Below, piece by piece: positions 1,384 through 32,304 of a stretch of DNA of 64,000 nt. Positions within the stretch are counted from its first letter, which is position 1. The number at the start of each line of letters is the position of its first letter. Origin of the DNA: Escherichia coli (GTDB lineage: Bacteria > Pseudomonadota > Gammaproteobacteria > Enterobacterales > Enterobacteriaceae); assembly GCF_048403405.1 (NCBI RefSeq), contig NZ_CP183129.1; one strand, given 5' to 3'. A program made the position numbers and the translations under genes. The notes under the pieces are model-generated. The model did no database searches, was not told the DNA's origin, and worked only from the letters and a program-made list of their open reading frames with translations.

Positions 1384-1524
1384 TTACTGCTTACACTGTA
1401 AGAACGCCGCAAACTCCGCTCCCCAGAAGCTCATCCGTATTTCACACAGCGAACCGTGCAGCATCCAGATGATGAGGATTACCGTCACGCAGAACGTGAT
1501 GGCCGTAAGCGATTTTTGCGACAT
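1384..1524 (-). CDS. Hok/Gef-family type I toxin (46 aa)
   Basis: Below the ORF-track size cutoff. Hand translation gives MSQKSLTAITFCVTVILIIWMLHGSLCEIRMSFWGAEFAAFLQCKQ. It has a TM helix, then SLCEIR, then a G.EFAAF..C signature like Hok (SLCEIR...EVAAFMAYE). An AAGGAG lies 7 nt upstream of the ATG. A strong hairpin GACGGGGGA-GUAA-UCCCCCGUC at 1353-1374 follows the stop. Confidence 0.7.
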   Translation of the reverse strand: MSQKSLTAITFCVTVILIIWMLHGSLCEIRMSFWGAEFAAFLQCKQ

Positions 1525-1714: not shown

Positions 1715-1975
1715 TTAATTCTGAGGTAAAGGCAAACTCATCTGATTGTTTCCCCTGTGTGAAGCTGGCAGCTCATGCCACGGGATACCTTCTGAAGAGT
1801 GAACGCCGGAGGCGTGTTTTGATGTGAATTTATGGAAGGCTTCCAGTGTTGAGAAGCATACGCCGCATTCCAGATTGTTACACTGGTAATACTTTTGCCG
1901 CACGGTGTTTGAATCATTTTCCGGACGACTGGTGCGGATACGGGCAGATGCGCCACAAAGCGGACAACGGAACAT
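1715..1975 (-). CDS. ogr: Ogr/Delta-family zinc-finger late transcription activator
   Basis: MFRCPLCGASARIRTSR...YYQCNNLECGVCFST matches the P2 Ogr pattern (MFHCPLC...RTSR...YHQCQNVNCSATF). It sits next to gene D as in P2. Confidence 0.9.
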   Translation of the reverse strand: MFRCPLCGASARIRTSRPENDSNTVRQKYYQCNNLECGVCFSTLEAFHKFTSKHASGVHSSEGIPWHELPASHRGNNQMSLPLPQN

Positions 1976-25634: not shown

Positions 25635-26132
25635 ATGAACCCAATAACACTACAAATCATCAGCAATGCTATTGTTCTGCTTGGCGTTTTGGTTGCCATT
25701 GGAACCATTATCTACAATGTGCGTACCGCAAAAAAAACTCAAACGGCCAACTTTCTTTTTGAGAGTCGGCAAGATATGCAATATATAGAGTCATTGCATA
25801 CCCTGAAACAAGTGCATCGTTCAGGCAAATCATTTCGTTCTTATGTTTTTCCTTGTGATGGTTGCATAATAACAGATGAAGAAATGGCCGAGCGTCGAAA
25901 ATTTCAATATATTTTAAATTTTTACGAGCGAGTTGCTGTAAGTATTCGTGAAGGTATTTATGATGAAAAAATGATAAAAAGAACATCTTACACAACAGTT
26001 GTAGAGACATATGATATTGCCGAGCCATTAATTAAAGCAATCAGAGAAAGCATTAATTCGGATACTACATATCAAGAATTCGAATGGTTAGTAAGAAGAT
26101 GGAAAGCTAATCCTTTACGGAAAAACAAATAA
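25635..26132 (+). CDS. cargo protein 1: single N-terminal TM helix plus ~130-aa helical soluble domain, function unknown (reminiscent of DUF4760-type proteins)
   Basis: ORF track 165 aa, AT-rich. There are no enzyme motifs I can recognise. Confidence 0.8.
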   Translation: MNPITLQIISNAIVLLGVLVAIGTIIYNVRTAKKTQTANFLFESRQDMQYIESLHTLKQVHRSGKSFRSYVFPCDGCIITDEEMAERRKFQYILNFYERVAVSIREGIYDEKMIKRTSYTTVVETYDIAEPLIKAIRESINSDTTYQEFEWLVRRWKANPLRKNK

Positions 26133-26171: not shown

Positions 26172-27014
26172 GTGACACAGAATCCGTTTTCATTTTATGA
26201 CTTTTTGGGCTATCTAATTCCAGGTGGGTTATTCCTGTTTATCCTTTTTTTGTTTTCTATTGAAATTAACCCTGTTTATATAGAAGGTATTCTTAACCAT
26301 ATCCTGAAATATAAAGAAATAATAAGTGTATTTATATATGTGGCATTAATCGTTCTATCATATATTTCAGGTCACTTCATATCTATTCTATCATCCTGTT
26401 TAATTGAAAAATACATGAACAGTAAACTTGGGTATCCTTCAATTTATCTGTTTTCTAAAAGAAGCTCCCTGAAAATAAAACGACATAATACTAAGTTCAG
26501 TATAGTTAATTTTATTCGTGGAGTTTTTTTATTTCCTGTATCAGCTTTTGATAAAGCAGAACATCATAAAACCACACTGCATTCTATACTTATTAAAGTC
26601 TTTTGGCCGCAAATACGAGATGGTTATATAAATGTTTTTTCTGTATCTACGCTATATCGACGTAAGGGCTTGAGGGGCAATCTTTTTCGCCTTGCTTATC
26701 ATTATGTGTATGAACATTCTAAAAATCATCAGGTGAAAATGCAAAACTATGTTGCTTTGTATGGTTTTTGTAGAAACATTACATTTGTTTTTCTCGCTTC
26801 AGTCTGGTTGCTTATGTTCCTGCTCCTTCTATCCTTTTTAATAGATATAAATATCAGACTGTTACCTTTTTGTTTTCTTCTCTTGTTTTGTATTGCTGTA
26901 TCCCGAGTATTTTATTATGGTTTTGTTAAGTATTATCGCCGCTATTCTCTTGAGGTTTTAATGGCATTTGCGGTACTTCAGCACGATAAAAAAACTTCGG
27001 CAATTTCATCATGA
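26172..27014 (+). CDS. cargo protein 2: polytopic membrane protein, function unknown
   Basis: ORF track 280 aa with a GTG start after GGGGGAA. Hydrophobic helices sit at the N-terminus (FYDFLGYLIPGGLFLFILFLF, IISVFIYVALIVLSYISGHFISIL) and the C-terminus (ITFVFLASVWLLMFLLLLSFLI, LLPFCFLLLFCIAV). Confidence 0.8.
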   Translation: MTQNPFSFYDFLGYLIPGGLFLFILFLFSIEINPVYIEGILNHILKYKEIISVFIYVALIVLSYISGHFISILSSCLIEKYMNSKLGYPSIYLFSKRSSLKIKRHNTKFSIVNFIRGVFLFPVSAFDKAEHHKTTLHSILIKVFWPQIRDGYINVFSVSTLYRRKGLRGNLFRLAYHYVYEHSKNHQVKMQNYVALYGFCRNITFVFLASVWLLMFLLLLSFLIDINIRLLPFCFLLLFCIAVSRVFYYGFVKYYRRYSLEVLMAFAVLQHDKKTSAISS

Positions 27015-27024
27015 TTTGAAACAT

Positions 27025-27049
27025 TGGCACCCTGTTAGCAAGGGTGCCA
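27025..27049. terminator. hairpin between convergent cargo gene 2 and parR
   Basis: TGGCACCCT-GTTAGCA-AGGGTGCCA; no clear U-tract. Confidence 0.4.
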
Positions 27050-27097: not shown

Positions 27098-27412
27098 TTA
27101 TTCTGGGAATAAGGTCTGAATATTCTTTTTTATTCTATAAAAATTGCATTCAACTCCGCTAGGCTGATTATCCTGGTATGTTTCCTTGATGCTAACGGTA
27201 TTGAAGGGGAGGTTGTCCTCTGGCCATTCGGCCATCCAGTAGGCAAATGCTGGGTTGCGCTTTATGAGCGCTAGCCCAGCCAGAAAGGCCGCGCGTTGCG
27301 CGCGGCTGCGTTCGGAGGCTGGTAGGCTATCGAGGTAATTGCACGCCTCCTGTTCACTCTTGACGGCGGCGGGCTTCAGATAGAAACTTATCCGTCTGGT
27401 TGGTGTCGTCAT
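27098..27412 (-). CDS. parR: ParR-like centromere-binding adaptor
   Basis: Trimmed to ATG 27412. MTTPTRRISFYLKP...YLDSLPASERSRAQRAAFLAGLAL parallels R1 ParR (..TLDSIPQGERSRLNRAALTAGLAL). Confidence 0.8.
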   Translation of the reverse strand: MTTPTRRISFYLKPAAVKSEQEACNYLDSLPASERSRAQRAAFLAGLALIKRNPAFAYWMAEWPEDNLPFNTVSIKETYQDNQPSGVECNFYRIKKNIQTLFPE

Positions 27413-27416
27413 TGGT

Positions 27417-28376
27417 TTACTCCTTGTCCATTGCGTACAGCCCATTAACCAGAGCAAACTGTGGCACCCCGTCCGCGATGAAAGTCGCATTAACTCCGCA
27501 GACTTCGCGGATAGCGGGTGCCACAATCTCCGCCCCTCCACCGACAACCATCACCCGCCCGTAACCCGAAAAAACCGCCAGCGCGCGGATCACGCGTTGT
27601 TTCAGTGTTTCTTCCTTTTCACGAATAACCGCCATCAGGCTGGCGTAATGCGCGTCATTGTGGATGTGCTGGCGCAGCCAGGCTTCATCATGGCGATGTT
27701 CGATAATGGTATTGGCGATGTGGTGACTGGTGCGCATACCGTTAGTGGCCATCACCGACAGTACGGCATCGGCCATCAGGGAAACGCCTACGTGTGGATC
27801 GCAAAACACCTGGCTGATACCTGCCAGTTGCCCTTGAACCTTTGCCACATCCAGCGTGGTTCCGCCTAAATCCACAATCAGCAGGGATTCAAACGGACTC
27901 ATGTCAGCCAGTGCTTTAAAGCCAGCCGGAATGGATTCAGGCATAACCCGCACGTTACGGATAGTGAATGCTTCGCCGTTCTGGTACTCCACCGAGCGCA
28001 TAACGTTCGCTTTTTTGCGGTTGATGTTGGCCATGTCCGGCTGTGCGTTTGTCTCGAAATACTCGCTCAGTGGCAGGGTGACAACCACATCCACCTCTTG
28101 TGGCGTGATGCCTGATTTGACCAGCGCGTGATGAATGGCGATTACATTCACATCGCTGTACTGGTATTGCGTGTCGGTCGTCTGGACAAAGCGATCGCTG
28201 ACCGGATCAAAACCATAGCGCACGCCATCAAGCATGTAGTTCGCGGGCTGCATGCCACCGAACGGCGCAGACCATTCCGACTTGAAGCTGTTCGGGCTGA
28301 TGGCGTTGCGGCGTTCGCCATTCTCAGTCCATGCCAGCTTGATGTTGGTGGAGCCGTCGTCGATACAAATTTTCAT
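27417..28376 (-). CDS. parM: ParM/StbA actin-like segregation ATPase
   Basis: MKICIDDGSTNIKLAW...ISPNSFKSEW...YSDVNVIAIHHAL...VMPESIPAGF...LIVDLGGTTLD...GVSL...VMVVGGGAE is colinear with plasmid R1 ParM as I remember it. Confidence 0.95.
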   Translation of the reverse strand: MKICIDDGSTNIKLAWTENGERRNAISPNSFKSEWSAPFGGMQPANYMLDGVRYGFDPVSDRFVQTTDTQYQYSDVNVIAIHHALVKSGITPQEVDVVVTLPLSEYFETNAQPDMANINRKKANVMRSVEYQNGEAFTIRNVRVMPESIPAGFKALADMSPFESLLIVDLGGTTLDVAKVQGQLAGISQVFCDPHVGVSLMADAVLSVMATNGMRTSHHIANTIIEHRHDEAWLRQHIHNDAHYASLMAVIREKEETLKQRVIRALAVFSGYGRVMVVGGGAEIVAPAIREVCGVNATFIADGVPQFALVNGLYAMDKE

Positions 28377-28404
28377 GTCGATTTTCCTTATGTTGGTTAA
28401 TTAA

Positions 28405-28518
28405 CCGTTTACGGGATTTTTAAATCCCGCTTTCGCCTGTTTTGTGCGCGCTTCATATATCGCGGCGCGTTTTTTGCTCATTTACGGGATTTGTGAATCC
28501 CGTTTCTGTCTGTTTTTT
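28405..28518. repeat. two ~38-bp direct repeats, each with an 18-bp palindrome (CGGGATTTTTAAATCCCG 28412-28429; CGGGATTTGTGAATCCCG 28485-28502): parC-like candidate
   Basis: The repeats bracket the region immediately upstream of parM. The second copy lies inside the 3' end of gene A. Confidence 0.45.
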
Positions 28519-31293
28519 GTTTCCACTGGTCAGGCCAGTCCTCAGCAGGTTTGCTTTGCGGCGGGCGCGTTCAGTGGTTTCTCTGATTCTCTGTGCGTGC
28601 TCTGCGTCACGAATGGCGCGCAGCATGTCAGAAAGCACGGTAACGGGTGTTTTCATGGTGTTCTGGACCTGCTGAAGTGTGGATGCCAGGCGTGCGGCGG
28701 CTTCGGGGTCTGATGCCCCGAGCTGTGCCAGATAGCTGGAGACCGGGTTATGGCGGATCTCCGTGCTGCTTACGCCGTGATTACGGCTCAGGCGCTGCCA
28801 GAGCTGCGTGATTCGGCTGTCCGGGCGGGCATCCGGTTTGCGTACAATTTCAAATCCCTGCGGTGCAATGATGCTGCCGTCAACGTACAGACTGCCGCCC
28901 CGTAACAGGTGCTGCATCTGTTGTTCACCGATATGCAGGCCGAGAGATTCAGCAGACTCCCGCCATTCTTTAGCGAGTAATTCGTGGTTATCAGGCAAAG
29001 GCCGCTGCTGTTTGCGGCTCTGTGTCCAGCTCTGCATTTCATCGCTGCTGTTTTTTGCCTGTTTGTCACGAAGCGAACGCATCAGCGCCCGGCGTTCGTG
29101 TCGTTTCAGTGAGCGCATCCATTCGTTCACTTCAACGCCGTTAGGGAGCTGCGGCCACGGTGCTGGCCGTTCTTCCGGCTGTTCTGTCCCGTTGTTGTCC
29201 GTTTCCTGTACACGGGGACAGTTATTGCCACGAGTCCAAGGGGCGGCAGGGCCGCCCTGAAGGTCAAAACCATTTTCGCGGGCGCTGTCTTCCGCTTCCG
29301 GTTTGCGTCTTACCAGCTTCCAGTTATCCGGATGCGTGCACACACGGGAGGATTCCCCGATGAGTGGTGACCAGATCCCGTAAATCTGTACGCTCTGTTC
29401 GCCGTAATCGTTCATCTCATCGGCGAGGTCGTAGGCGGTGCGAATCAGGTAGTCTTTGCGTGGAACAAGTACGCCGCCCTGTTTCTCTATGTAGGTGGCA
29501 AAACATCCGGCATCAGCGGCGGCAAGAACCGCATCCATTGCGTCATCCTTCAGCCGTTGCGGGCCTTCCGGGTTGCGTGCCATCTGGCTGGCAAGGCGGC
29601 GCAGTTCACGCCATACCTGGCGGGAGGGGATGCCAAAGAACTGGAACTGGCGGACCCGGTGAAGGCGCGCCCAGCCGATGGCGCGTTCCACGCTCTCGGC
29701 CATTGATTTTCCGGTTTCGTGGTCAACGCGTGGCTTGCCCGTTTTCGGGTCGATGCCATCCACGGCACGGCTGTCCAGGTTTTTCCCGATGTAGGTGGCG
29801 ATGTAGCTGGTCGGTGTGCCTTTTGAGCCGTCGACGTACTCCGCCTTAAAGCGTGGGGTAATATCATCACCCAGCTCGTGACGATCTTCCTGAATGGCAA
29901 TATCGCGGGTGTGGGACACAATAGTGTCGATTTCTTCCGGATGAGCAAAGACCATCATATGCCAGTGCACGGTGCCGTCATGGTGAGGCTCCACCGTGCG
30001 GATGCCATACCAGCGCAGGCCGTCGCGGTTCAGTTTCTTGCGGACCGCCGCAAAAAACGTGTTAACCAGGTAATCGCTGGAGTCGCGCATGGTGGCCCCG
30101 TTCCATTTGGGATTCGGATGACCGTTCTCTGTTGTGGCGTGGTATTTTGACGGGCAGGTGACAGTCAGAAACACCGCTCTGTCGCCACGGGCTTCGGCCA
30201 GAAGTTCCAGCCCCTTCATGGTGGCCATCATTTCTGCCTTACGGTGAACCGGGTTACTTACTCCCGCGTAATACACTGTCTCGAGATCAATCGTGAACCC
30301 ATCTTCGTTTTCCAGCATGAAACTTTTCAGGAAATCGCGTGTTTTCTCGCGCTGTGCGCGAAACTCGCTTAATGCGTCCTGGCTCAGATAGGGCGATGTT
30401 TTTCTGGAAACCAGACAGGCGGCGCGGAGTTGTTCTTCTCTCCACTCGCAACGTAACAGCCACAGTTTGCGTTTCCACCATTCCGCACAGGTCAGGCGAA
30501 GGATTGCGCCCGGCAGCAGCTCCGTGTCCGGTTCGTTCCTCCGGTCTTTATCTGTTGTCAGTGCGTCATAATGTGGAGGCATGATGTGCAGGTGTAACGC
30601 CATGCGGGCCAGCATCTGATACGCCTTCAGCGTTACATCCATGGTCAGTTCGCCATCGGTCGCGCCAAAGCCATCGCAGAGTTTTTCGAAGGTGCTGCTG
30701 AACATCGCCGCCGTCATGGTGGCCAGCGTCTGTATCTGGTGTTTGTTGAGCTGCGGCAGGTAAAGCAAATCGTCCAGGCGTTCGCGTCCGGCAAGGGAGC
30801 GATAACCAGGTGTCAGCCAGCGCCCGTCAGTGCGATCCAGACGTTCGAATATTTTGCGCAGGGTTCCGCGTGCATAGCGTTCCGCCTGCCAGGTCTTTTT
30901 GCCTTTCTGACGATCGGCTTCCTGCTTCTTGCGCAGGAAAGAGAGGTGGCGGCTCAGAGGTTCTCGCAGATAACCGGGAAGCGCCTTCAGTGTGGCAAAG
31001 GCACGGGCTACCGGGTCTTGTTCTGTTGCCCGGCGCTTACTGATGATGCTCTGTGCCAGCTTTTCACGCTGTCCGGCTTCCTCAAGGGATGCCATGAGTT
31101 TTTTACCCATGGCGGATTGTGCGAAAAAGGCTTCTTCCTTCGCTTCCTGTTCTTCCTGTGCCCTTTTGTCCGCCTCAAGGTAGTAACGGATGGCGCGTTG
31201 CAGGTCGGTTTCAGTTTCCTGCCTGCGCTCCGTAAATCTGGCCGGATCAATAGCTGGTCGTGGTTCATTCCAGCTCCATGCAAACGCACTCAT
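28453..31293 (-). CDS. A: replication initiation endonuclease gpA (rolling-circle Rep), 946 aa
   Basis: Contains ..VEPHHDGTVHWHMMVF.. (HUH-like) and ..GTPTSYIATYIGKN.. (catalytic Tyr pair). ATG 31293 overlaps the upstream stop (ATGA). It is about 185 aa longer than my recollection of P2 A (761 aa). Confidence 0.9.
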   Translation of the reverse strand: MSAFAWSWNEPRPAIDPARFTERRQETETDLQRAIRYYLEADKRAQEEQEAKEEAFFAQSAMGKKLMASLEEAGQREKLAQSIISKRRATEQDPVARAFATLKALPGYLREPLSRHLSFLRKKQEADRQKGKKTWQAERYARGTLRKIFERLDRTDGRWLTPGYRSLAGRERLDDLLYLPQLNKHQIQTLATMTAAMFSSTFEKLCDGFGATDGELTMDVTLKAYQMLARMALHLHIMPPHYDALTTDKDRRNEPDTELLPGAILRLTCAEWWKRKLWLLRCEWREEQLRAACLVSRKTSPYLSQDALSEFRAQREKTRDFLKSFMLENEDGFTIDLETVYYAGVSNPVHRKAEMMATMKGLELLAEARGDRAVFLTVTCPSKYHATTENGHPNPKWNGATMRDSSDYLVNTFFAAVRKKLNRDGLRWYGIRTVEPHHDGTVHWHMMVFAHPEEIDTIVSHTRDIAIQEDRHELGDDITPRFKAEYVDGSKGTPTSYIATYIGKNLDSRAVDGIDPKTGKPRVDHETGKSMAESVERAIGWARLHRVRQFQFFGIPSRQVWRELRRLASQMARNPEGPQRLKDDAMDAVLAAADAGCFATYIEKQGGVLVPRKDYLIRTAYDLADEMNDYGEQSVQIYGIWSPLIGESSRVCTHPDNWKLVRRKPEAEDSARENGFDLQGGPAAPWTRGNNCPRVQETDNNGTEQPEERPAPWPQLPNGVEVNEWMRSLKRHERRALMRSLRDKQAKNSSDEMQSWTQSRKQQRPLPDNHELLAKEWRESAESLGLHIGEQQMQHLLRGGSLYVDGSIIAPQGFEIVRKPDARPDSRITQLWQRLSRNHGVSSTEIRHNPVSSYLAQLGASDPEAAARLASTLQQVQNTMKTPVTVLSDMLRAIRDAEHAQRIRETTERARRKANLLRTGLTSGNKKQTETGFTNPVNEQKTRRDI

Positions 31294-31679
31294 GGCTGGT
31301 ATCCCGTCACGCGCTGCCACTCCTGCGAGAAGAGGGCGGAAAGGCGGTTAAATTCAGCGGTGTATTCACTCAGCGAGGCACACCCGCCAGCAGTGCGATG
31401 CGCCAGCATTGCTGCAAATACGGAGGCCGGAGAGTCGTAATACGCCAGCAGTGATTCGCCGTGCGGTGTCAGGCAGTGCAACGCCAGTCCGTGTGGTGTG
31501 AAGTCCACGCGGTAGCAGTCGTCTACTGTGAAATAAAGGGTGTCTGCATTCTCCGGTTTTGTGGTGCGTGCTCTGTTGTCACGACCACGGATGTAGAGAT
31601 CAAATAACCCCTGAAGAACGGGAGCCAGACGGGTGTCCTGTGTGCGCACCCATCTTGTGAAGTCATGAGCGTCAATCAT
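31290..31679 (-). CDS. hypothetical early protein (129 aa)
   Basis: ORF track; translationally coupled to A. Confidence 0.6.
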   Translation of the reverse strand: MIDAHDFTRWVRTQDTRLAPVLQGLFDLYIRGRDNRARTTKPENADTLYFTVDDCYRVDFTPHGLALHCLTPHGESLLAYYDSPASVFAAMLAHRTAGGCASLSEYTAEFNRLSALFSQEWQRVTGYQP

Positions 31680-31751: not shown

Positions 31752-31982
31752 TTAATGGAGTTTGTTTTGCTGCTGGATGAGCTGTTGAAGCTCGTGCAGA
31801 TCATCCGCCAGATAGCTGAAAACAGAGGCGGAATAAATGTTTGATAGTGCGTGGCTGCGCTCATGCAGCATATTGATGTGCATGATTTGCGCGACGCGTG
31901 ATGCGCGGGAAAGTCTGCGGTTGATTTCAGTCTGGATGTGACGACGCTCCGCGATAGCGCGGTGCTGTTTGCGGTCTGCCAT
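31752..31982 (-). CDS. hypothetical basic/helical 76-aa protein; predicted target of the C4-like RNA
   Basis: ORF track. The SD AAGAGG lies 7 nt upstream of ATG 31982 and sits inside the GAGCAAAGAGG box. Confidence 0.6.
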   Translation of the reverse strand: MADRKQHRAIAERRHIQTEINRRLSRASRVAQIMHINMLHERSHALSNIYSASVFSYLADDLHELQQLIQQQNKLH

Positions 31983-32040
31983 GGTGTGGCCTCTTTGCTC
32001 GGTGATAGAAATAACTCACCATCCAGAGTTGAGAATCTCG
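31983..32040 (-). promoter_or_regulatory. downstream target copy (a2/b2-like): UUCUCAAC (32035->32028) ... GAGCAAAGAGG (32000->31990, contains SD)
   Basis: Exact complementarity to the two exposed boxes of the 32120->32041 RNA. Confidence 0.6.
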
Positions 32041-32120
32041 GGGTGGCGAGACGTACAGGGTTCTCAACACCGGAGAGCAAAGAATCCGGCCCGACCGAAG
32101 TCGGCCCCGTACGCCCCGCC
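32041..32120 (-). ncRNA. C4-type antisense RNA (P1/P7 c4-like), ~79 nt
   Basis: Hand-folded. A 16-bp closing stem GGCGGGGCGUACGGGG/CCCUGUACGUCUCGCC (13 WC + 3 GU) is followed by a 3' ACCC. Inside are the hairpins CCGAC-UUCG-GUCGG and CCGGA-UUCUUUGCUC-UCCGG, then single-stranded UGUUGAGAA. TTGCCA-17-AATTAT lies immediately upstream (32149->32121). Confidence 0.6.
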
Positions 32121-32161
32121 ATAATTCTGACGCGAAAAAGACGTGGCAATACAGTACGCAC

Positions 32162-32182
32162 AAAAAAACCGCTTGCGCGGTT
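32162..32182 (-). terminator. intrinsic terminator-like hairpin inside the early operon
   Basis: The minus strand reads AACCGCGCAAGCGGUUUUUUU. Confidence 0.5.
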
Positions 32183-32184
32183 AT

Positions 32185-32216
32185 GCGCTTTGCTCTGTAT
32201 CGGGTTGAGAATCCCG
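32185..32216 (-). promoter_or_regulatory. upstream target copy (a1/b1-like): CGGGAUUCUCAACCCG hairpin ... AGAGCAAAG
   Basis: Same two boxes as the downstream copy, with an 8-nt spacer instead of 27 nt. Confidence 0.55.
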
Positions 32217-32304
32217 GCACCCGTTTTATGAGGTGCAGCGGAAATGTAACCTGACCGATTGAGGCATGGCAAGCGGTTTTTTTGTGTGTGCATGTTCTGG
32301 TTTC

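What the first reader, a model, noticed from the sequence alone, without database searches (positions are those of the whole stretch)
27098..28518. Plasmid R1-type ParM/ParR partition cassette with parC-like palindromic repeats in an integrase-bearing P2-like prophage
- **Proteins.** The 319-aa protein is colinear with R1 ParM (actin-fold motifs DDGSTNIK, DLGGTTLD, GGGAE). The 104-aa protein downstream carries the ParR N-terminal RHH-like segment (LDSLPASERSRAQRAAFLAGLAL).
- **Repeats.** Upstream of parM are two ~38-bp direct repeats. Each contains an 18-bp palindrome (CGGGATTTTTAAATCCCG; CGGGATTTGTGAATCCCG). They lie 73 bp apart and bracket the likely parM promoter. The second copy sits inside the 3' end of gene A.
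- **Interpretation.** The cassette is co-oriented with, and directly follows, the early operon (…A-parM-parR). An actin-like segregation machine is not part of the P2 paradigm. It suggests either an episomal (phage-plasmid) phase or intracellular positioning of replicating phage DNA.
- **Link to the C4-like RNA.** Because the cassette lies downstream of the C4-like RNA target, the same RNA could gate its expression.
Basis: partly seen in the sequence, partly recalled or inferred. Interest (0 to 1): 0.55.

Follow-up and report, generated by a model that had tools for sequence, protein, structure and literature searches.

The report
ParMRC partition module in P88-like prophage
An integrated P2-like (phage P88-type) prophage of E. 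coli carries an intact plasmid-style actin-filament DNA-segregation cassette; this is real and widespread, has already been noted in the literature, and no functional study of it was found.

Summary
parM (27417-28376, minus strand) is about 55% identical to plasmid R1 ParM over its full length. parR (27098-27412) is a Pfam Plasmid_stab_B protein. Two 39-nt repeats with 18-bp palindromes lie 73 bp apart upstream of parM, and the distal one sits inside the 3' end of replication gene A.

The window is an E. coli chromosome carrying a phage P88-type (Xuanwuvirus) prophage. The cassette is annotated as ParM and partition protein in GenBank and PHROGs. Rousset et al. 2022 remarked that about a quarter of E. 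coli P2-like phages carry such a system, "perhaps" for plasmid maintenance.

New results here:
- Phage-linked ParMs grouped as one clade in an NJ tree without bootstrap. In E. coli, Salmonella, Hafnia, Plesiomonas, Serratia and Enterobacter they always sit downstream of, and co-oriented with, gene A.
- parM is under strong purifying selection (dN/dS 0.06-0.2).
- A GGG-N10-CCC site pair with 72-73 bp spacing is conserved and travels with parM.
- The ParR linker is hypervariable, and a recombination junction lies at codon 18/19.
- 1440 of 1442 copies in complete E. coli genomes are chromosomal, and no consensus promoter of its own was found.

Best reading: a working ParMRC machine expressed with the early replication operon, acting on extrachromosomal phage circles. 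Stable plasmid lysogeny is less likely.

The parts
27417..28376 (-). parM: 319-aa actin-like ATPase, the filament-forming motor of a type II partition system.
   Evidence: It matches Pfam StbA_N (1.4e-81) and the ParM C-terminal domain (1e-68). It aligns over its full length to R1 ParM (1mwk, E 3e-92). It matches phrog_691 'partition protein'. dN/dS is 0.06-0.2. The nucleotide-binding residues D6, D7, G8, E147, D169 and the GGGA motif are invariant across the phage clade.
27098..27412 (-). parR: 104-aa ribbon-helix-helix adaptor. It has an N-terminal DNA-binding domain (residues 1-62), a hypervariable linker (63-93) and a conserved C-terminal tail KKNIQTLFPE (94-104).
   Evidence: It matches Pfam PF10784 (7.7e-29), pB171 ParR 2jd3 (E 0.012) and phrog_2515. 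The alignment with R1-type StbB shows a shared tail, KKNAMKLIN. The entropy profile defines the three regions. The AF2 model has helices at 20-61, a disordered stretch at 62-86 and a C-terminal helix at 87-101.
28408..28446 (.). Proximal parC-like repeat, in the A-parM intergenic region. Its core is the palindrome CGGGATTTTTAAATCCCG at 28412-28429. It is the presumed ParR binding site.
   Evidence: A GGG-N10-CCC core at the same distance from the parM ATG (52-59 nt) is conserved in E. coli, Salmonella, Hafnia and Plesiomonas phages.
28481..28519 (.). Distal parC-like repeat, inside the last codons of gene A. Its core is CGGGATTTGTGAATCCCG at 28485-28502, 73 bp (about 7 helical turns) from the proximal copy.
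   Evidence: The spacing of 72-73 bp is conserved in three divergent lineages. In Hafnia the distal copy lies in a different upstream ORF, so the pair travels with parM and not with gene A.
28453..31320 (-). Gene A: the P2-type rolling-circle replication endonuclease, immediately upstream in the same orientation. It is the likely source of parMR transcription.
   Evidence: It matches Pfam Phage_GPA (1.2e-131). No terminator is predicted on the minus strand between the stop of A and parM. A-parM co-orientation holds in all 10 independent phage loci examined.
27025..27049 (.). A 9-bp-stem hairpin between the convergent parR and the cargo ORF. It is the likely end of the early/parMR transcription unit.
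   Evidence: RNA fold. It was not called by the terminator scan because the T-run is short.
32039..32126 (-). C4 antisense RNA, with isrK at 32162-32236. It is co-oriented and lies 3.7 kb upstream, within the same early-operon direction. It is context only.
   Evidence: Rfam C4 78.5 bits and isrK 63.1 bits. The downstream ORF belongs to the Pfam Derepression family.

Best explanation
This is an intact, functional type II (ParM/ParR/parC) DNA-segregation module. It is an anciently inherited, near-core part of one clade of P2-like phages, namely phage P88/Xuanwuvirus and relatives in other Enterobacterales.

**Proposed mechanism.**
1. parMR is transcribed as the distal end of the early replication operon (...C4/isrK-derepression-orf-A-parM-parR). 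It is therefore made when the phage genome is extrachromosomal and replicating, after infection or induction.
2. ParR dimers bind the two GGG-N10-CCC sites, which lie 73 bp apart on the same DNA face.
3. The clustered C-terminal ParR tails capture ParM filament ends.
4. ATP-driven ParM polymerisation pushes phage DNA circles apart.

**Proposed benefit.** The module would distribute or position the monomeric circles made by gene-A rolling-circle replication. This is analogous to AlpAC of prophage CGP3. It could also deliver copies to both daughter cells before integration or after non-lytic excision.

**Shown versus inferred.**
- Shown: identity and integrity of the parts, conservation, selection, synteny and chromosomal location.
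- Inferred: ParR binding to the sites, co-transcription with A, and the biological role.
For: **Parts intact and R1-like.**

**Purifying selection.** parM dN/dS is 0.06-0.2. The parR RHH domain and tail give 0.05-0.45. There are no internal stops in 11 loci.

**Distribution of phage-linked ParMs.**
- They group as one clade in an NJ tree, for which no bootstrap support was obtained.
- Every ParM at least 53% identical to this one sits beside a gene A homologue. The flanking gpA (31-56%) and portal (30-47%) are more diverged than ParM (53-62%).

**Link to gene A.**
- parM is always downstream of A and co-oriented with it, whereas neighbouring cargo genes take either orientation.
- In E. coli about 96% of well-covered copies of this A type (1327 genomes) are matched by parM (1278 genomes).

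**Cis sites.**
- The site pair has conserved GGG/CCC ends, a variable interior and fixed 72-73 bp spacing in three divergent lineages, and it moves with parM.
- The half-sites (AAATCCCG, AAACCCA) resemble R1-type iterons (AAACCCAAAAAC).

**Transcription.** No consensus promoter and no terminator lie between A and parM.

**Location.** Copies are overwhelmingly chromosomal (1440 of 1442).

**Precedent.** In prophage CGP3, AlpC/AlpA is early-induced, its adaptor binds upstream sites, and it is needed for efficient phage replication (PMC4446434).
Against: - There are no expression, binding or localisation data.
- Two binding sites (at most about 4 ParR dimers) are far fewer than the 10 iterons of R1 parC. 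A clamp-like segrosome may therefore not form, and the sites could be mere operators.
- The E. coli-group ParR lacks the conserved helical cap region seen in R1-type ParR and in the Hafnia and Serratia homologues.
- A weak promoter could exist, with a -35-like TTTAAA in the proximal palindrome and a conserved TTAAT box. It could give lysogenic expression.
- P2 itself, 186 and most P2-like phages replicate well without such a system, so any benefit must be conditional.
- The same prophage also carries a hok-like gene. Together with parMRC this hints at plasmid-style stabilisation.
Confidence: 0.5

Rival explanations
1. Plasmid-prophage (phage-plasmid) mode. The cassette would allow the phage to persist as a low-copy episome as an alternative to integration. 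ParMRC would provide partition and hok would provide post-segregational killing.
For:
- The ParMRC parts are complete, and there is a hok/gef gene on the same prophage.
- One 34,461-bp circular 'plasmid' record (NZ_CP148288.1) is an entire P88-like genome. An identical phage is integrated in another strain.
- The P2-like Burkholderia phage KS14 is maintained as a plasmid with a ParA (PMC3091744).
- The phage-plasmid D6 uses a StbA-type ParM.
Against: - 1440 of 1442 copies in complete E. coli genomes are chromosomal.
- Among 72,556 plasmid records only one is a phage-sized circle. The other hits are large replicons or a degraded linear contig.
- All examined elements keep an integrase.
- No plasmid-type replication or copy-control gene is annotated. 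Gene A belongs to the early operon, which established P2 biology says is repressed in lysogens.
- The single circular record could simply be excised replicative DNA captured by the assembler.
Confidence: 0.2
2. Replication-coupling role. ParM/ParR assembled at the sites that overlap the end of gene A would act with the gpA HUH nickase. They would stimulate or localise rolling-circle initiation or termination, as R1 ParM/ParR stimulate the TraI relaxase, rather than acting mainly as a segregation motor.
For: - The A-parM adjacency is invariant across very divergent gpA types.
- In the E. coli group and in Plesiomonas the distal site lies within the gene A coding end.
- In R1, ParM and ParR bind TraI and stimulate its relaxase activity (PMC4949242).
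Against: - In Hafnia and Enterobacter one or two other ORFs separate A from parM, and the sites stay with parM.
- There is no evidence of a gpA-ParM/ParR contact.
- The position of ori relative to the sites was not determined.
Confidence: 0.1
3. Lysogen-phase function unrelated to phage DNA transport. Three variants were considered:
- ParR acts as a repressor or roadblock at two operators.
- The cassette excludes or destabilises incoming related phages or ParMRC plasmids by incompatibility.
- The cassette is antiviral cargo of the A-Q hotspot.
For: - The cassette lies between gpA and gpQ, the defence hotspot of P2-like phages.
- ParR alleles are highly diversified: dozens of 90% clusters against about four for ParM.
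- Having only two sites looks operator-like.
- ParR specificity determines plasmid incompatibility in C. perfringens (PMC9426499, listed).
Against: - There is no PADLOC hit.
- Unlike true hotspot cargo, the cassette is conserved, always adjacent to A and always co-oriented with it.
- The diversified part of ParR is the linker. The DNA-binding strand and the sites are shared between alleles.
- A mere repressor would not require a 319-aa ATPase kept at dN/dS of about 0.1.
Confidence: 0.1
4. The palindromic repeats are RNA or DNA hairpins, for example terminators for antisense transcription, rather than protein-binding sites.
For: - On the plus strand both palindromes are followed by T-rich runs and are called terminator-like.
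- Similar antisense calls occur in Serratia.
- The region folds better than shuffled sequence (z = -3.95).
Against: - In Hafnia and Plesiomonas only the GGG/CCC ends are kept and the interior is not self-complementary, so no stable hairpin forms. The spacing and position are nevertheless conserved.
- The T-runs correspond to the A-tracts that are typical of R1-type iterons.
Confidence: 0.05

Closest known systems
Plasmid R1 parA locus (ParM/ParR/parC; StbA/StbB of R100/IncF), the type II partition system
   Same: - ParM is colinear with R1 ParM, with about 55% of aligned residues identical by eye in the alignment, and has the same nucleotide-binding motifs.
- The gene order is sites-parM-parR.
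- ParR has an N-terminal RHH strand (RRISFYL versus RTIAFKL) and the C-terminal tail KKNxxxL.
- The cis sites are split into two blocks upstream of parM.
- The half-sites share the A-rich + CCC core, and the leader and RBS are similar (ATAAGGA).
   Different: - There are only two inverted-repeat sites (four half-sites), not two blocks of tandem direct iterons (ten 11-bp iterons from memory of the R1 literature).
- There is no TTGACA-type promoter between the blocks.
- The ParR middle region is replaced by a hypervariable linker.
- The cassette sits at the end of a phage replication operon in an integrating prophage, not on a plasmid.
- The closest plasmid ParMs are 52% identical or less, with a gap to the phage clade.
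AlpC/AlpA/alpS of Corynebacterium glutamicum prophage CGP3
   Same: Both are an actin-like protein plus a DNA-binding adaptor on an integrated prophage, with adaptor sites in the upstream region. In CGP3 the system is induced early on prophage activation, connects circular phage DNA to filaments, and is needed for efficient phage replication (PMC4446434). This is the best functional analogy.
   Different: There is no close sequence relationship. Pfam ALP_N scores only 26.2 bits against a 26.3-bit cut-off. The host phylum and phage type differ. The function of the P88-type system is untested.
Partition systems of phage-plasmids (P1 ParAB, D6 StbA-type ParM, Burkholderia P2-like KS14 ParA)
   Same: These are phage-borne plasmid-type partition genes. 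D6 carries a ParM that is 47% identical. KS14 shows that a P2-like phage can live as a plasmid.
   Different: Those phages are extrachromosomal in lysogens. P88-type elements carry a tyrosine integrase and are found integrated in 1440 of 1442 cases.
Cargo of the gpA-gpQ defence hotspot of P2-like phages (old/tin of P2; Rousset et al. 2022)
   Same: The cassette occupies the same interval between A and Q. Rousset et al. listed it among the hotspot 'systems' and noted that it is present in about a quarter of E. coli P2-like phages.
   Different: The cassette is conserved rather than variable, and it is fixed in position and orientation next to A. The real variable region starts inside parR at codon 18/19. 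There is no defence-family hit.

Membership tests
Type II ParMRC partition system (R1 parA type) | ParM: an actin-fold ATPase with StbA_N and ParM C-terminal domains and intact nucleotide-binding motifs. | tested here: met
   Pfam E-values are 1.4e-81 and 1e-68. The protein aligns over its full length to R1 ParM structures (E 3e-92). D6, D7, G8, E147, D169 and GGGA are invariant in the phage clade.
Type II ParMRC partition system (R1 parA type) | ParR: a small ribbon-helix-helix centromere-binding protein encoded immediately downstream of parM. | tested here: met
   Pfam PF10784 matches at 7.7e-29 over residues 6-75. pB171 ParR 2jd3 matches at E 0.012. The strand R[RK]ISFYLKP and the helix QRAAxLAGLAL are conserved. 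A fold search with the monomer model was uninformative.
Type II ParMRC partition system (R1 parA type) | A conserved C-terminal ParR tail that binds ParM. | tested here: met
   The tail K-x-N-I/A-x-x-L-F-P is conserved across all phage alleles and aligns with R1-type KKNAMKLIN. AF2 predicts a C-terminal helix at 87-101. The binding itself is not testable here.
Type II ParMRC partition system (R1 parA type) | parC centromere: an array of several tandem iterons upstream of parM (ten 11-bp iterons in R1, from memory; four 20-bp repeats in pSK41, from memory). | tested here: not met
   There are only two sites, each an inverted repeat (GGG-N10-CCC), 73 bp apart. No further copies occur in the prophage. 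The R1-type control locus shows the expected iteron arrays. The split two-block layout and the CCC core are shared.
Type II ParMRC partition system (R1 parA type) | A ParR-autoregulated promoter embedded in parC. | tested here: inconclusive
   No sigma-70 consensus match lies in the sense orientation upstream of parM in the E. coli, P88, Hafnia or Plesiomonas loci. The Serratia hit overlaps the ATG. By eye, only a weak TTTAAA-17-ATTAAT candidate is seen.
Type II ParMRC partition system (R1 parA type) | Stabilises a low-copy extrachromosomal replicon. | not testable with these tools
   This needs a plasmid-stability assay. Location data show 1440 chromosomal copies against 2 plasmid copies.
Phage-plasmid / plasmid prophage | The prophage is an extrachromosomal replicon in lysogens. 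| tested here: not met
   1440 of 1442 places are chromosomal in complete E. coli genomes. Only one phage-sized circular record exists in PLSDB. The window copy is integrated next to pdxB.
Phage-plasmid / plasmid prophage | A plasmid-type replication initiator or copy control, usually with no integrase. | tested here: not met
   The annotation of P88 and of the identical E. coli prophage lists only the gpA rolling-circle endonuclease and a tyrosine integrase. This is an annotation-level check only.
AlpAC-type phage actin system (CGP3) | Sequence membership in the Alp (ALP_N) family, early induction, and a requirement for phage replication. | tested here: not met
   ALP_N scores 26.2 bits, below the 26.3-bit cut-off. 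The expression and replication phenotypes are not testable here. The system may work like AlpAC but is not a member of that family.
Antiviral cargo of the P2 gpA-gpQ hotspot | A variable, swappable gene set between A and Q that matches or behaves like a defence system. | tested here: not met
   The position criterion is met. However, there is no PADLOC hit, about 96% coupling to this A type, and fixed orientation and adjacency across genera.

The most novel reading that the evidence does not exclude
ParMRC would be an integral accessory of P2-type rolling-circle replication in a whole clade of Peduoviridae. A minimal two-site centromere next to or inside the replication gene would tether newly made monomeric circles to actin-like filaments. 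This would raise burst size and/or deliver pre-integration copies to both daughters. Such a filament-driven viral DNA positioning system would then be present in about a quarter of E. coli genomes. A sub-variant is bet-hedging, in which the same module allows occasional stable episomal carriage, backed by the hok-like toxin.
Probability: 0.3. Interest if true: 0.65.

Novelty: already known. Interest (0 to 1): 0.38.

Why it matters
About 24% of complete E. coli genomes, including O157:H7, O26, O121 and ST131 strains, carry this cassette inside a P2-like prophage. No study in the searched literature has tested what an actin-like segregation motor does for an integrating phage.

If it positions or segregates replicating phage circles, it would be the Gram-negative, genetically tractable counterpart of AlpAC and PhuZ-type viral cytoskeletons.

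If instead it permits plasmid-like carriage, it would blur the border between integrative prophages and phage-plasmids for a very common E. coli phage family.

The minimal two-site centromere and the hypervariable ParR linker are also convenient handles for dissecting how many ParR tails a ParM filament end needs.

Tried and rejected
- **Defence-system reading.** PADLOC gave no hit for ParM or ParR.
- **Recent capture from a plasmid.** This is rejected. The nearest plasmid ParMs are 52% identical or less, and the phage ParMs grouped as one clade in the NJ tree.
- **Decaying hitchhiker.** This is rejected by intact ORFs and low dN/dS.
- **Hairpin or terminator reading of the palindromes.** This is rejected, because the interiors are not self-complementary in Hafnia and Plesiomonas.
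- **Extra centromere copies elsewhere in the prophage.** None were found.
- **Own sigma-70 promoter.** None was found by consensus scans in four lineages, and the one Serratia hit overlaps the parM ATG.
- **Fold search with the AF2 ParR model.** There were no meaningful matches (best E = 6). The model is a partly disordered monomer with mean pLDDT 68.5.
- **Bootstrap of the ParM tree.** It timed out, so the monophyly rests on one NJ tree plus the identity and context split.
- **Check of whether the strain with the 34-kb circular copy also has an integrated copy.** That assembly is apparently not in the E. coli collection. Only an identical integrated copy in another strain was found.
- **Shigella 'plasmid' hit.** It is a linear, IS-ridden prophage fragment and is uninformative.
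- **Literature searches for a functional study of the P88-type ParMR.** Only passing mentions were found.
Full report
**1. Observation**

- The minus strand of the window carries a 319-aa ORF (27417..28376). Four bases downstream lies a 104-aa ORF that starts at the ATG at 27412 and ends at 27098.
- The first ORF matches Pfam StbA_N (E 1.4e-81) and the ParM C-terminal domain (E 1e-68). It aligns from residue 2 to 316 with the crystal-structure sequences of plasmid R1 ParM (1mwk and others, E 3e-92).
- The second ORF matches Pfam Plasmid_stab_B (E 7.7e-29) and, weakly, the pB171 ParR/StbB structure 2jd3 (E 0.012).
- Upstream of parM there are two 39-nt direct repeats at 28408-28446 and 28481-28519. 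They are 82% identical and 73 bp apart start to start. Each holds an 18-bp near-palindrome.
- The motif CGGGATT-N4-AATCCCG occurs only at these two places in the 64-kb window.
- The 955-aa ORF at 28453..31320 is a P2-type replication protein (Phage_GPA, E 1.2e-131). The distal repeat therefore lies inside its last codons and the proximal one lies in the 76-bp A-parM gap.

**2. What the element is and where it sits**

- The window is an E. coli chromosome. It is 100% identical over the 1.6-kb cassette query to strain CRE1540 and seven other strains, and the CRE1540 annotation was used as a guide.
- It carries a P2-like prophage integrated next to pdxB. The prophage has integrase, C, Cox, an early operon, gene A, parM, parR, two cargo genes, then the cos region, portal Q and the morphogenetic genes.
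- The prophage belongs to the phage P88 group (Xuanwuvirus, Peduoviridae). P88, PhiSM of Citrobacter rodentium and a dozen other sequenced phages carry the same cassette at 96-98.5% DNA identity, annotated as "plasmid segregation protein ParM" and "partition protein". PHROGs also holds families for both proteins.
- parM is present in 1302 of 5426 complete E. coli genomes. There are 1440 copies on chromosomes and 2 on plasmid records.
- The matching type of gene A is present in 1431 genomes. At 80% or greater coverage the counts are 1327 for A and 1278 for parM, which is roughly 96% coupling.

**3. Prior art**

- Rousset et al. 2022 analysed the gpA-gpQ interval of E. coli P2-like prophages. 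[quoted passage not shown]
- The PhiSM paper lists the protein only as a "fitness" factor (PMC6456863).
- I found no functional study.
- The existence of the cassette and the episome idea are therefore already known. The function is untested.

**4. Comparative evidence that it is a functional, long-resident phage module**

- Database homologues show a gap. P88-type ParMs are at least 91% identical to this one. A few proteins follow at 53-62%, and plasmid ParMs (IncF, pOXA-48-like and others) start at 52% or below.
- I fetched the contexts of the 53-62% proteins. In Hafnia, Plesiomonas, Serratia (two species) and Enterobacter ludwigii they all lie in P2-like prophages. The order is gene A, then zero to two small ORFs, then parM, parR, variable cargo (HicAB, a KAP NTPase and others), sometimes ogr, then portal Q.
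- A scan of one genome per species, followed by tblastn, gave a clean split. Every ParM at least 53% identical has a gpA homologue upstream. None of those at 52% or below has one within 7 kb.
- In a neighbour-joining tree the phage-linked ParMs form one clade. The bootstrap run timed out.
- Across these phages ParM (53-62%) is better conserved than gpA (31-56%) or the portal (30-47%).
- All parM and parR ORFs are intact in the 11 loci examined.
- Nei-Gojobori dN/dS for parM is 0.06-0.20 and for parR is 0.16-0.52.
- parMR always has the same orientation as gene A, whereas the adjacent cargo genes take either orientation.

**5. The cis sites**

- A GGG-N10-CCC pair recurs in the E. coli group (six sequences, including Salmonella and E. 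albertii prophages), in Hafnia and in Plesiomonas.
- The start-to-start spacing is 72-73 bp. The proximal copy begins 52-59 nt before the parM ATG.
- The ten interior bases differ between lineages, and even between P88 and the window. The GGG and CCC ends and the spacing are fixed.
- In Hafnia the gene upstream of parM is an inserted 167-aa ORF rather than gene A, and the distal site lies in that ORF. The sites therefore belong to parM and not to A.
- GGG-N10-CCC occurs about once per 7 kb in the window. A correctly placed pair in three divergent lineages is therefore not chance.
- In Hafnia and Plesiomonas the interiors are not self-complementary, so a hairpin or terminator explanation fails. 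Recognition of two half-sites by a protein is the economical reading.
- Serratia and Enterobacter phages instead have a 14-20-nt inverted repeat with a 26-28-nt spacer, plus a GCCGTTTAAACGGC palindrome.
- An R1-type control locus shows the classical arrays of A-rich, CCC-containing 11-bp iterons flanking a TTGACA promoter element.
- The phage half-sites (AAATCCCG, and AAACCCAAAAACG in Hafnia) resemble single iterons. The leader and RBS (ATAAGGA) are also similar.
- The phage "parC" is thus a reduced, inverted-repeat version of the split R1 centromere, with four half-sites instead of ten iterons.
- The review of type II segrosomes describes one ParR dimer per iteron, with the tails clustered inside a ring (PMC5016525). 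Whether four dimers suffice is open.

**6. ParR**

- ParM of the window and of P88 are 98% identical, but their ParRs are only 53% identical.
- The first 18 codons show no difference at all, and parM has dS of 0.056. From codon 19 onward, synonymous sites are saturated (pS 0.74-0.92). A sharp recombination junction therefore lies inside parR, at about window position 27358.
- This is also where megablast identity to P88 stops. It marks the real left border of the swappable hotspot.
- A database search found dozens of ParR clusters of 101-107 aa at 48-73% identity in Escherichia, against about four clusters for ParM.
- The entropy profile shows three regions. Residues 1-62 (RHH strand RRISFYLKP and helices) are conserved, residues 63-93 form a hypervariable linker, and the tail K-x-N-I-x-x-L-F-P-E is conserved.
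- pN/pS is 0.5-0.76 in the linker. It is 0.05-0.45 in the RHH domain and 0-0.33 in the tail.
- The tail aligns with the KKNAMKLIN end of R1-type StbB. That region is known to insert into ParM (PMC5016525).
- AlphaFold2 (mean pLDDT 68.5) predicts helices at 20-61, disorder at 62-86 and a C-terminal helix at 87-101. A fold search with this model found nothing useful.
- P88-allele ParRs occur with either variant of the site interior. This is consistent with the specificity lying in the shared N-terminal strand and the GGG/CCC ends.

**7. Expression**

- No sigma-70 consensus promoter is found in the sense orientation upstream of parM in the window, P88, Hafnia or Plesiomonas. The only hit, in Serratia, overlaps the start codon.
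- No terminator is predicted on the coding strand between A and parM.
- A 9-bp-stem hairpin follows parR at 27025-27049.
- I therefore infer that parMR is the last part of the early operon. It would be made when gene A is made, that is, when the genome is extrachromosomal.
- A weak candidate (TTTAAA in the proximal palindrome, 17 bp, ATTAAT/ATTAAC in a conserved TTAAT box) cannot be excluded.
- Rfam confirms a C4 antisense RNA (32039..32126) and isrK (32162..32236) on the same strand. They lie just upstream of a Derepression-family ORF, a 129-aa ORF, A and parMR.

**8. Which role**

- *Against a regular plasmid lifestyle:*
  - 1440 of 1442 copies are chromosomal.
  - Of seven PLSDB hits, only NZ_CP148288.1 is a phage-sized circle (34,461 bp, complete genome with integrase). 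The identical phage is integrated in another strain of the same study.
  - The other hits are very large replicons or a degraded linear contig.
  - No plasmid-type replication gene is annotated.
- *For some plasmid-like behaviour:*
  - The prophage also carries a hok/gef gene (1384..1524, Pfam 30.1 bits). It thus has counterparts of both stability loci of R1.
  - The P2-like Burkholderia phage KS14 is a plasmid prophage with a ParA (PMC3091744).
- *Closest functional precedent for an integrated prophage:* AlpC/AlpA of CGP3. It is an early-induced actin-like protein and adaptor that tether circular phage DNA to filaments and are needed for efficient replication (PMC4446434).
- R1 ParM/ParR also stimulate the HUH relaxase TraI (PMC4949242). 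Given the invariant adjacency to the HUH nickase gpA, a replication-coupling role is worth testing.
- I weight the explanations as follows:

| Explanation | Weight |
|---|---|
| Segregation or positioning of extrachromosomal, replicating or transient circles | about 0.5 |
| Stable plasmid lysogeny | about 0.2 |
| Replication coupling | about 0.1 |
| Lysogen-phase regulatory or exclusion roles | about 0.1 |
| Hairpin artefact | about 0.05 |

**9. Verdict**

- The finding is real and accurately described.
- It is a bona fide ParM/ParR pair of the R1 type with a reduced centromere-like site pair. It is not a classical iteron parC and not a plasmid element.
- It is already annotated and has been noted in the literature, so its novelty is low.
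- The unanswered functional question, the prevalence and the details added here give it moderate interest. Those details are the grouping of phage ParMs in one clade, fixed synteny with gene A, the conserved two-site architecture, the recombination junction, and the hypervariable linker in parR.

Noticed in passing
window 1384-1524 (-), next to ogr at 1715-1975 (-): A 46-aa Hok/Gef-family toxin ORF (Pfam HOK_GEF, 30.1 bits) lies at the attL-side end of the prophage. Together with parMRC, the phage carries counterparts of both R1 stability loci (parA and parB/hok-sok). No sok-like RNA reached the Rfam gathering score.
   Followed up: partly
window 27098-27412, junction at about 27358 (parR codon 18/19): There is a sharp recombination junction inside parR. 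Compared with P88, codons 1-18 and all of parM are nearly identical (parM dS 0.056). Codons 19-104 are saturated at synonymous sites (pS 0.74-0.92). The swappable A-Q hotspot therefore begins inside parR. ParR residues 63-93 form a hypervariable linker, with dozens of alleles in Escherichia.
   Followed up: yes
window 32039-32236 (-) and 31752-31982 (-): Rfam C4 antisense RNA and isrK lie directly upstream of a Derepression-family (PF25738) ORF. This is a P1 immI-like (c4-ant) arrangement embedded in a P2-type early operon upstream of gene A.
   Followed up: partly
window 25635-26132 (+) and 26172-27014 (+): The actual variable hotspot cargo of this prophage is a DUF4760 protein and a 280-aa multi-pass membrane-like ORF. 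The latter has a weak PADLOC hit to Csx27 (E 1.6e-5). Both are PHROGs of unknown function. They may be an uncharacterised defence pair.
   Followed up: no
L002 (NZ_CP148288.1, 34,461 bp circular 'plasmid'): A complete P88-like phage genome, with integrase, is deposited as a circular plasmid of E. coli strain Z1323PEC0009. An identical phage is chromosomally integrated in strain Z1323HEC0067 (NZ_CP148378.1). I could not tell whether this is a true episome or replicative DNA captured by the assembler.
   Followed up: partly
L011 (NZ_JBQPOM010000071.1, titled Vagococcus sp. WN89Y) and L035 (Lachnospiraceae MAG contig): Records attributed to Firmicutes hold a P88-type prophage with a ParM 97% identical to this one (L011), or an enterobacterial-type ParM (L035). 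These are most likely contamination or binning errors in the public records.
   Followed up: no
L037 6992-8269 (Apirhabdus apintestini 44-kb plasmid CP138907.1): A plasmid-borne parM is split into two ORFs. Its best segment is 61% identical to the phage ParM, closer than any other plasmid copy seen. No gpA lies in the 12-kb flank. It may be the nearest plasmid relative of the phage clade.
   Followed up: no
L007 7887-7978, L008 7883-7974, L013 (Serratia and Enterobacter P2-like prophages): In this subclade the region upstream of parM holds a different architecture. There is a 14-20-nt inverted repeat (GGGAAC..ATAGAAAAAT / ATTTTTCT..GTTCCC) with a 26-28-nt spacer, plus a GCCGTTTAAACGGC palindrome, instead of the 73-bp-spaced pair.
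   Followed up: partly
L010 (Escherichia albertii NBRC 107761): The parM is 99% identical to the window's, but it is joined to a third ParR allele (62% identical) and to a portal only 30% identical. The replication/parM module is thus combined with a different morphogenetic module.
   Followed up: no
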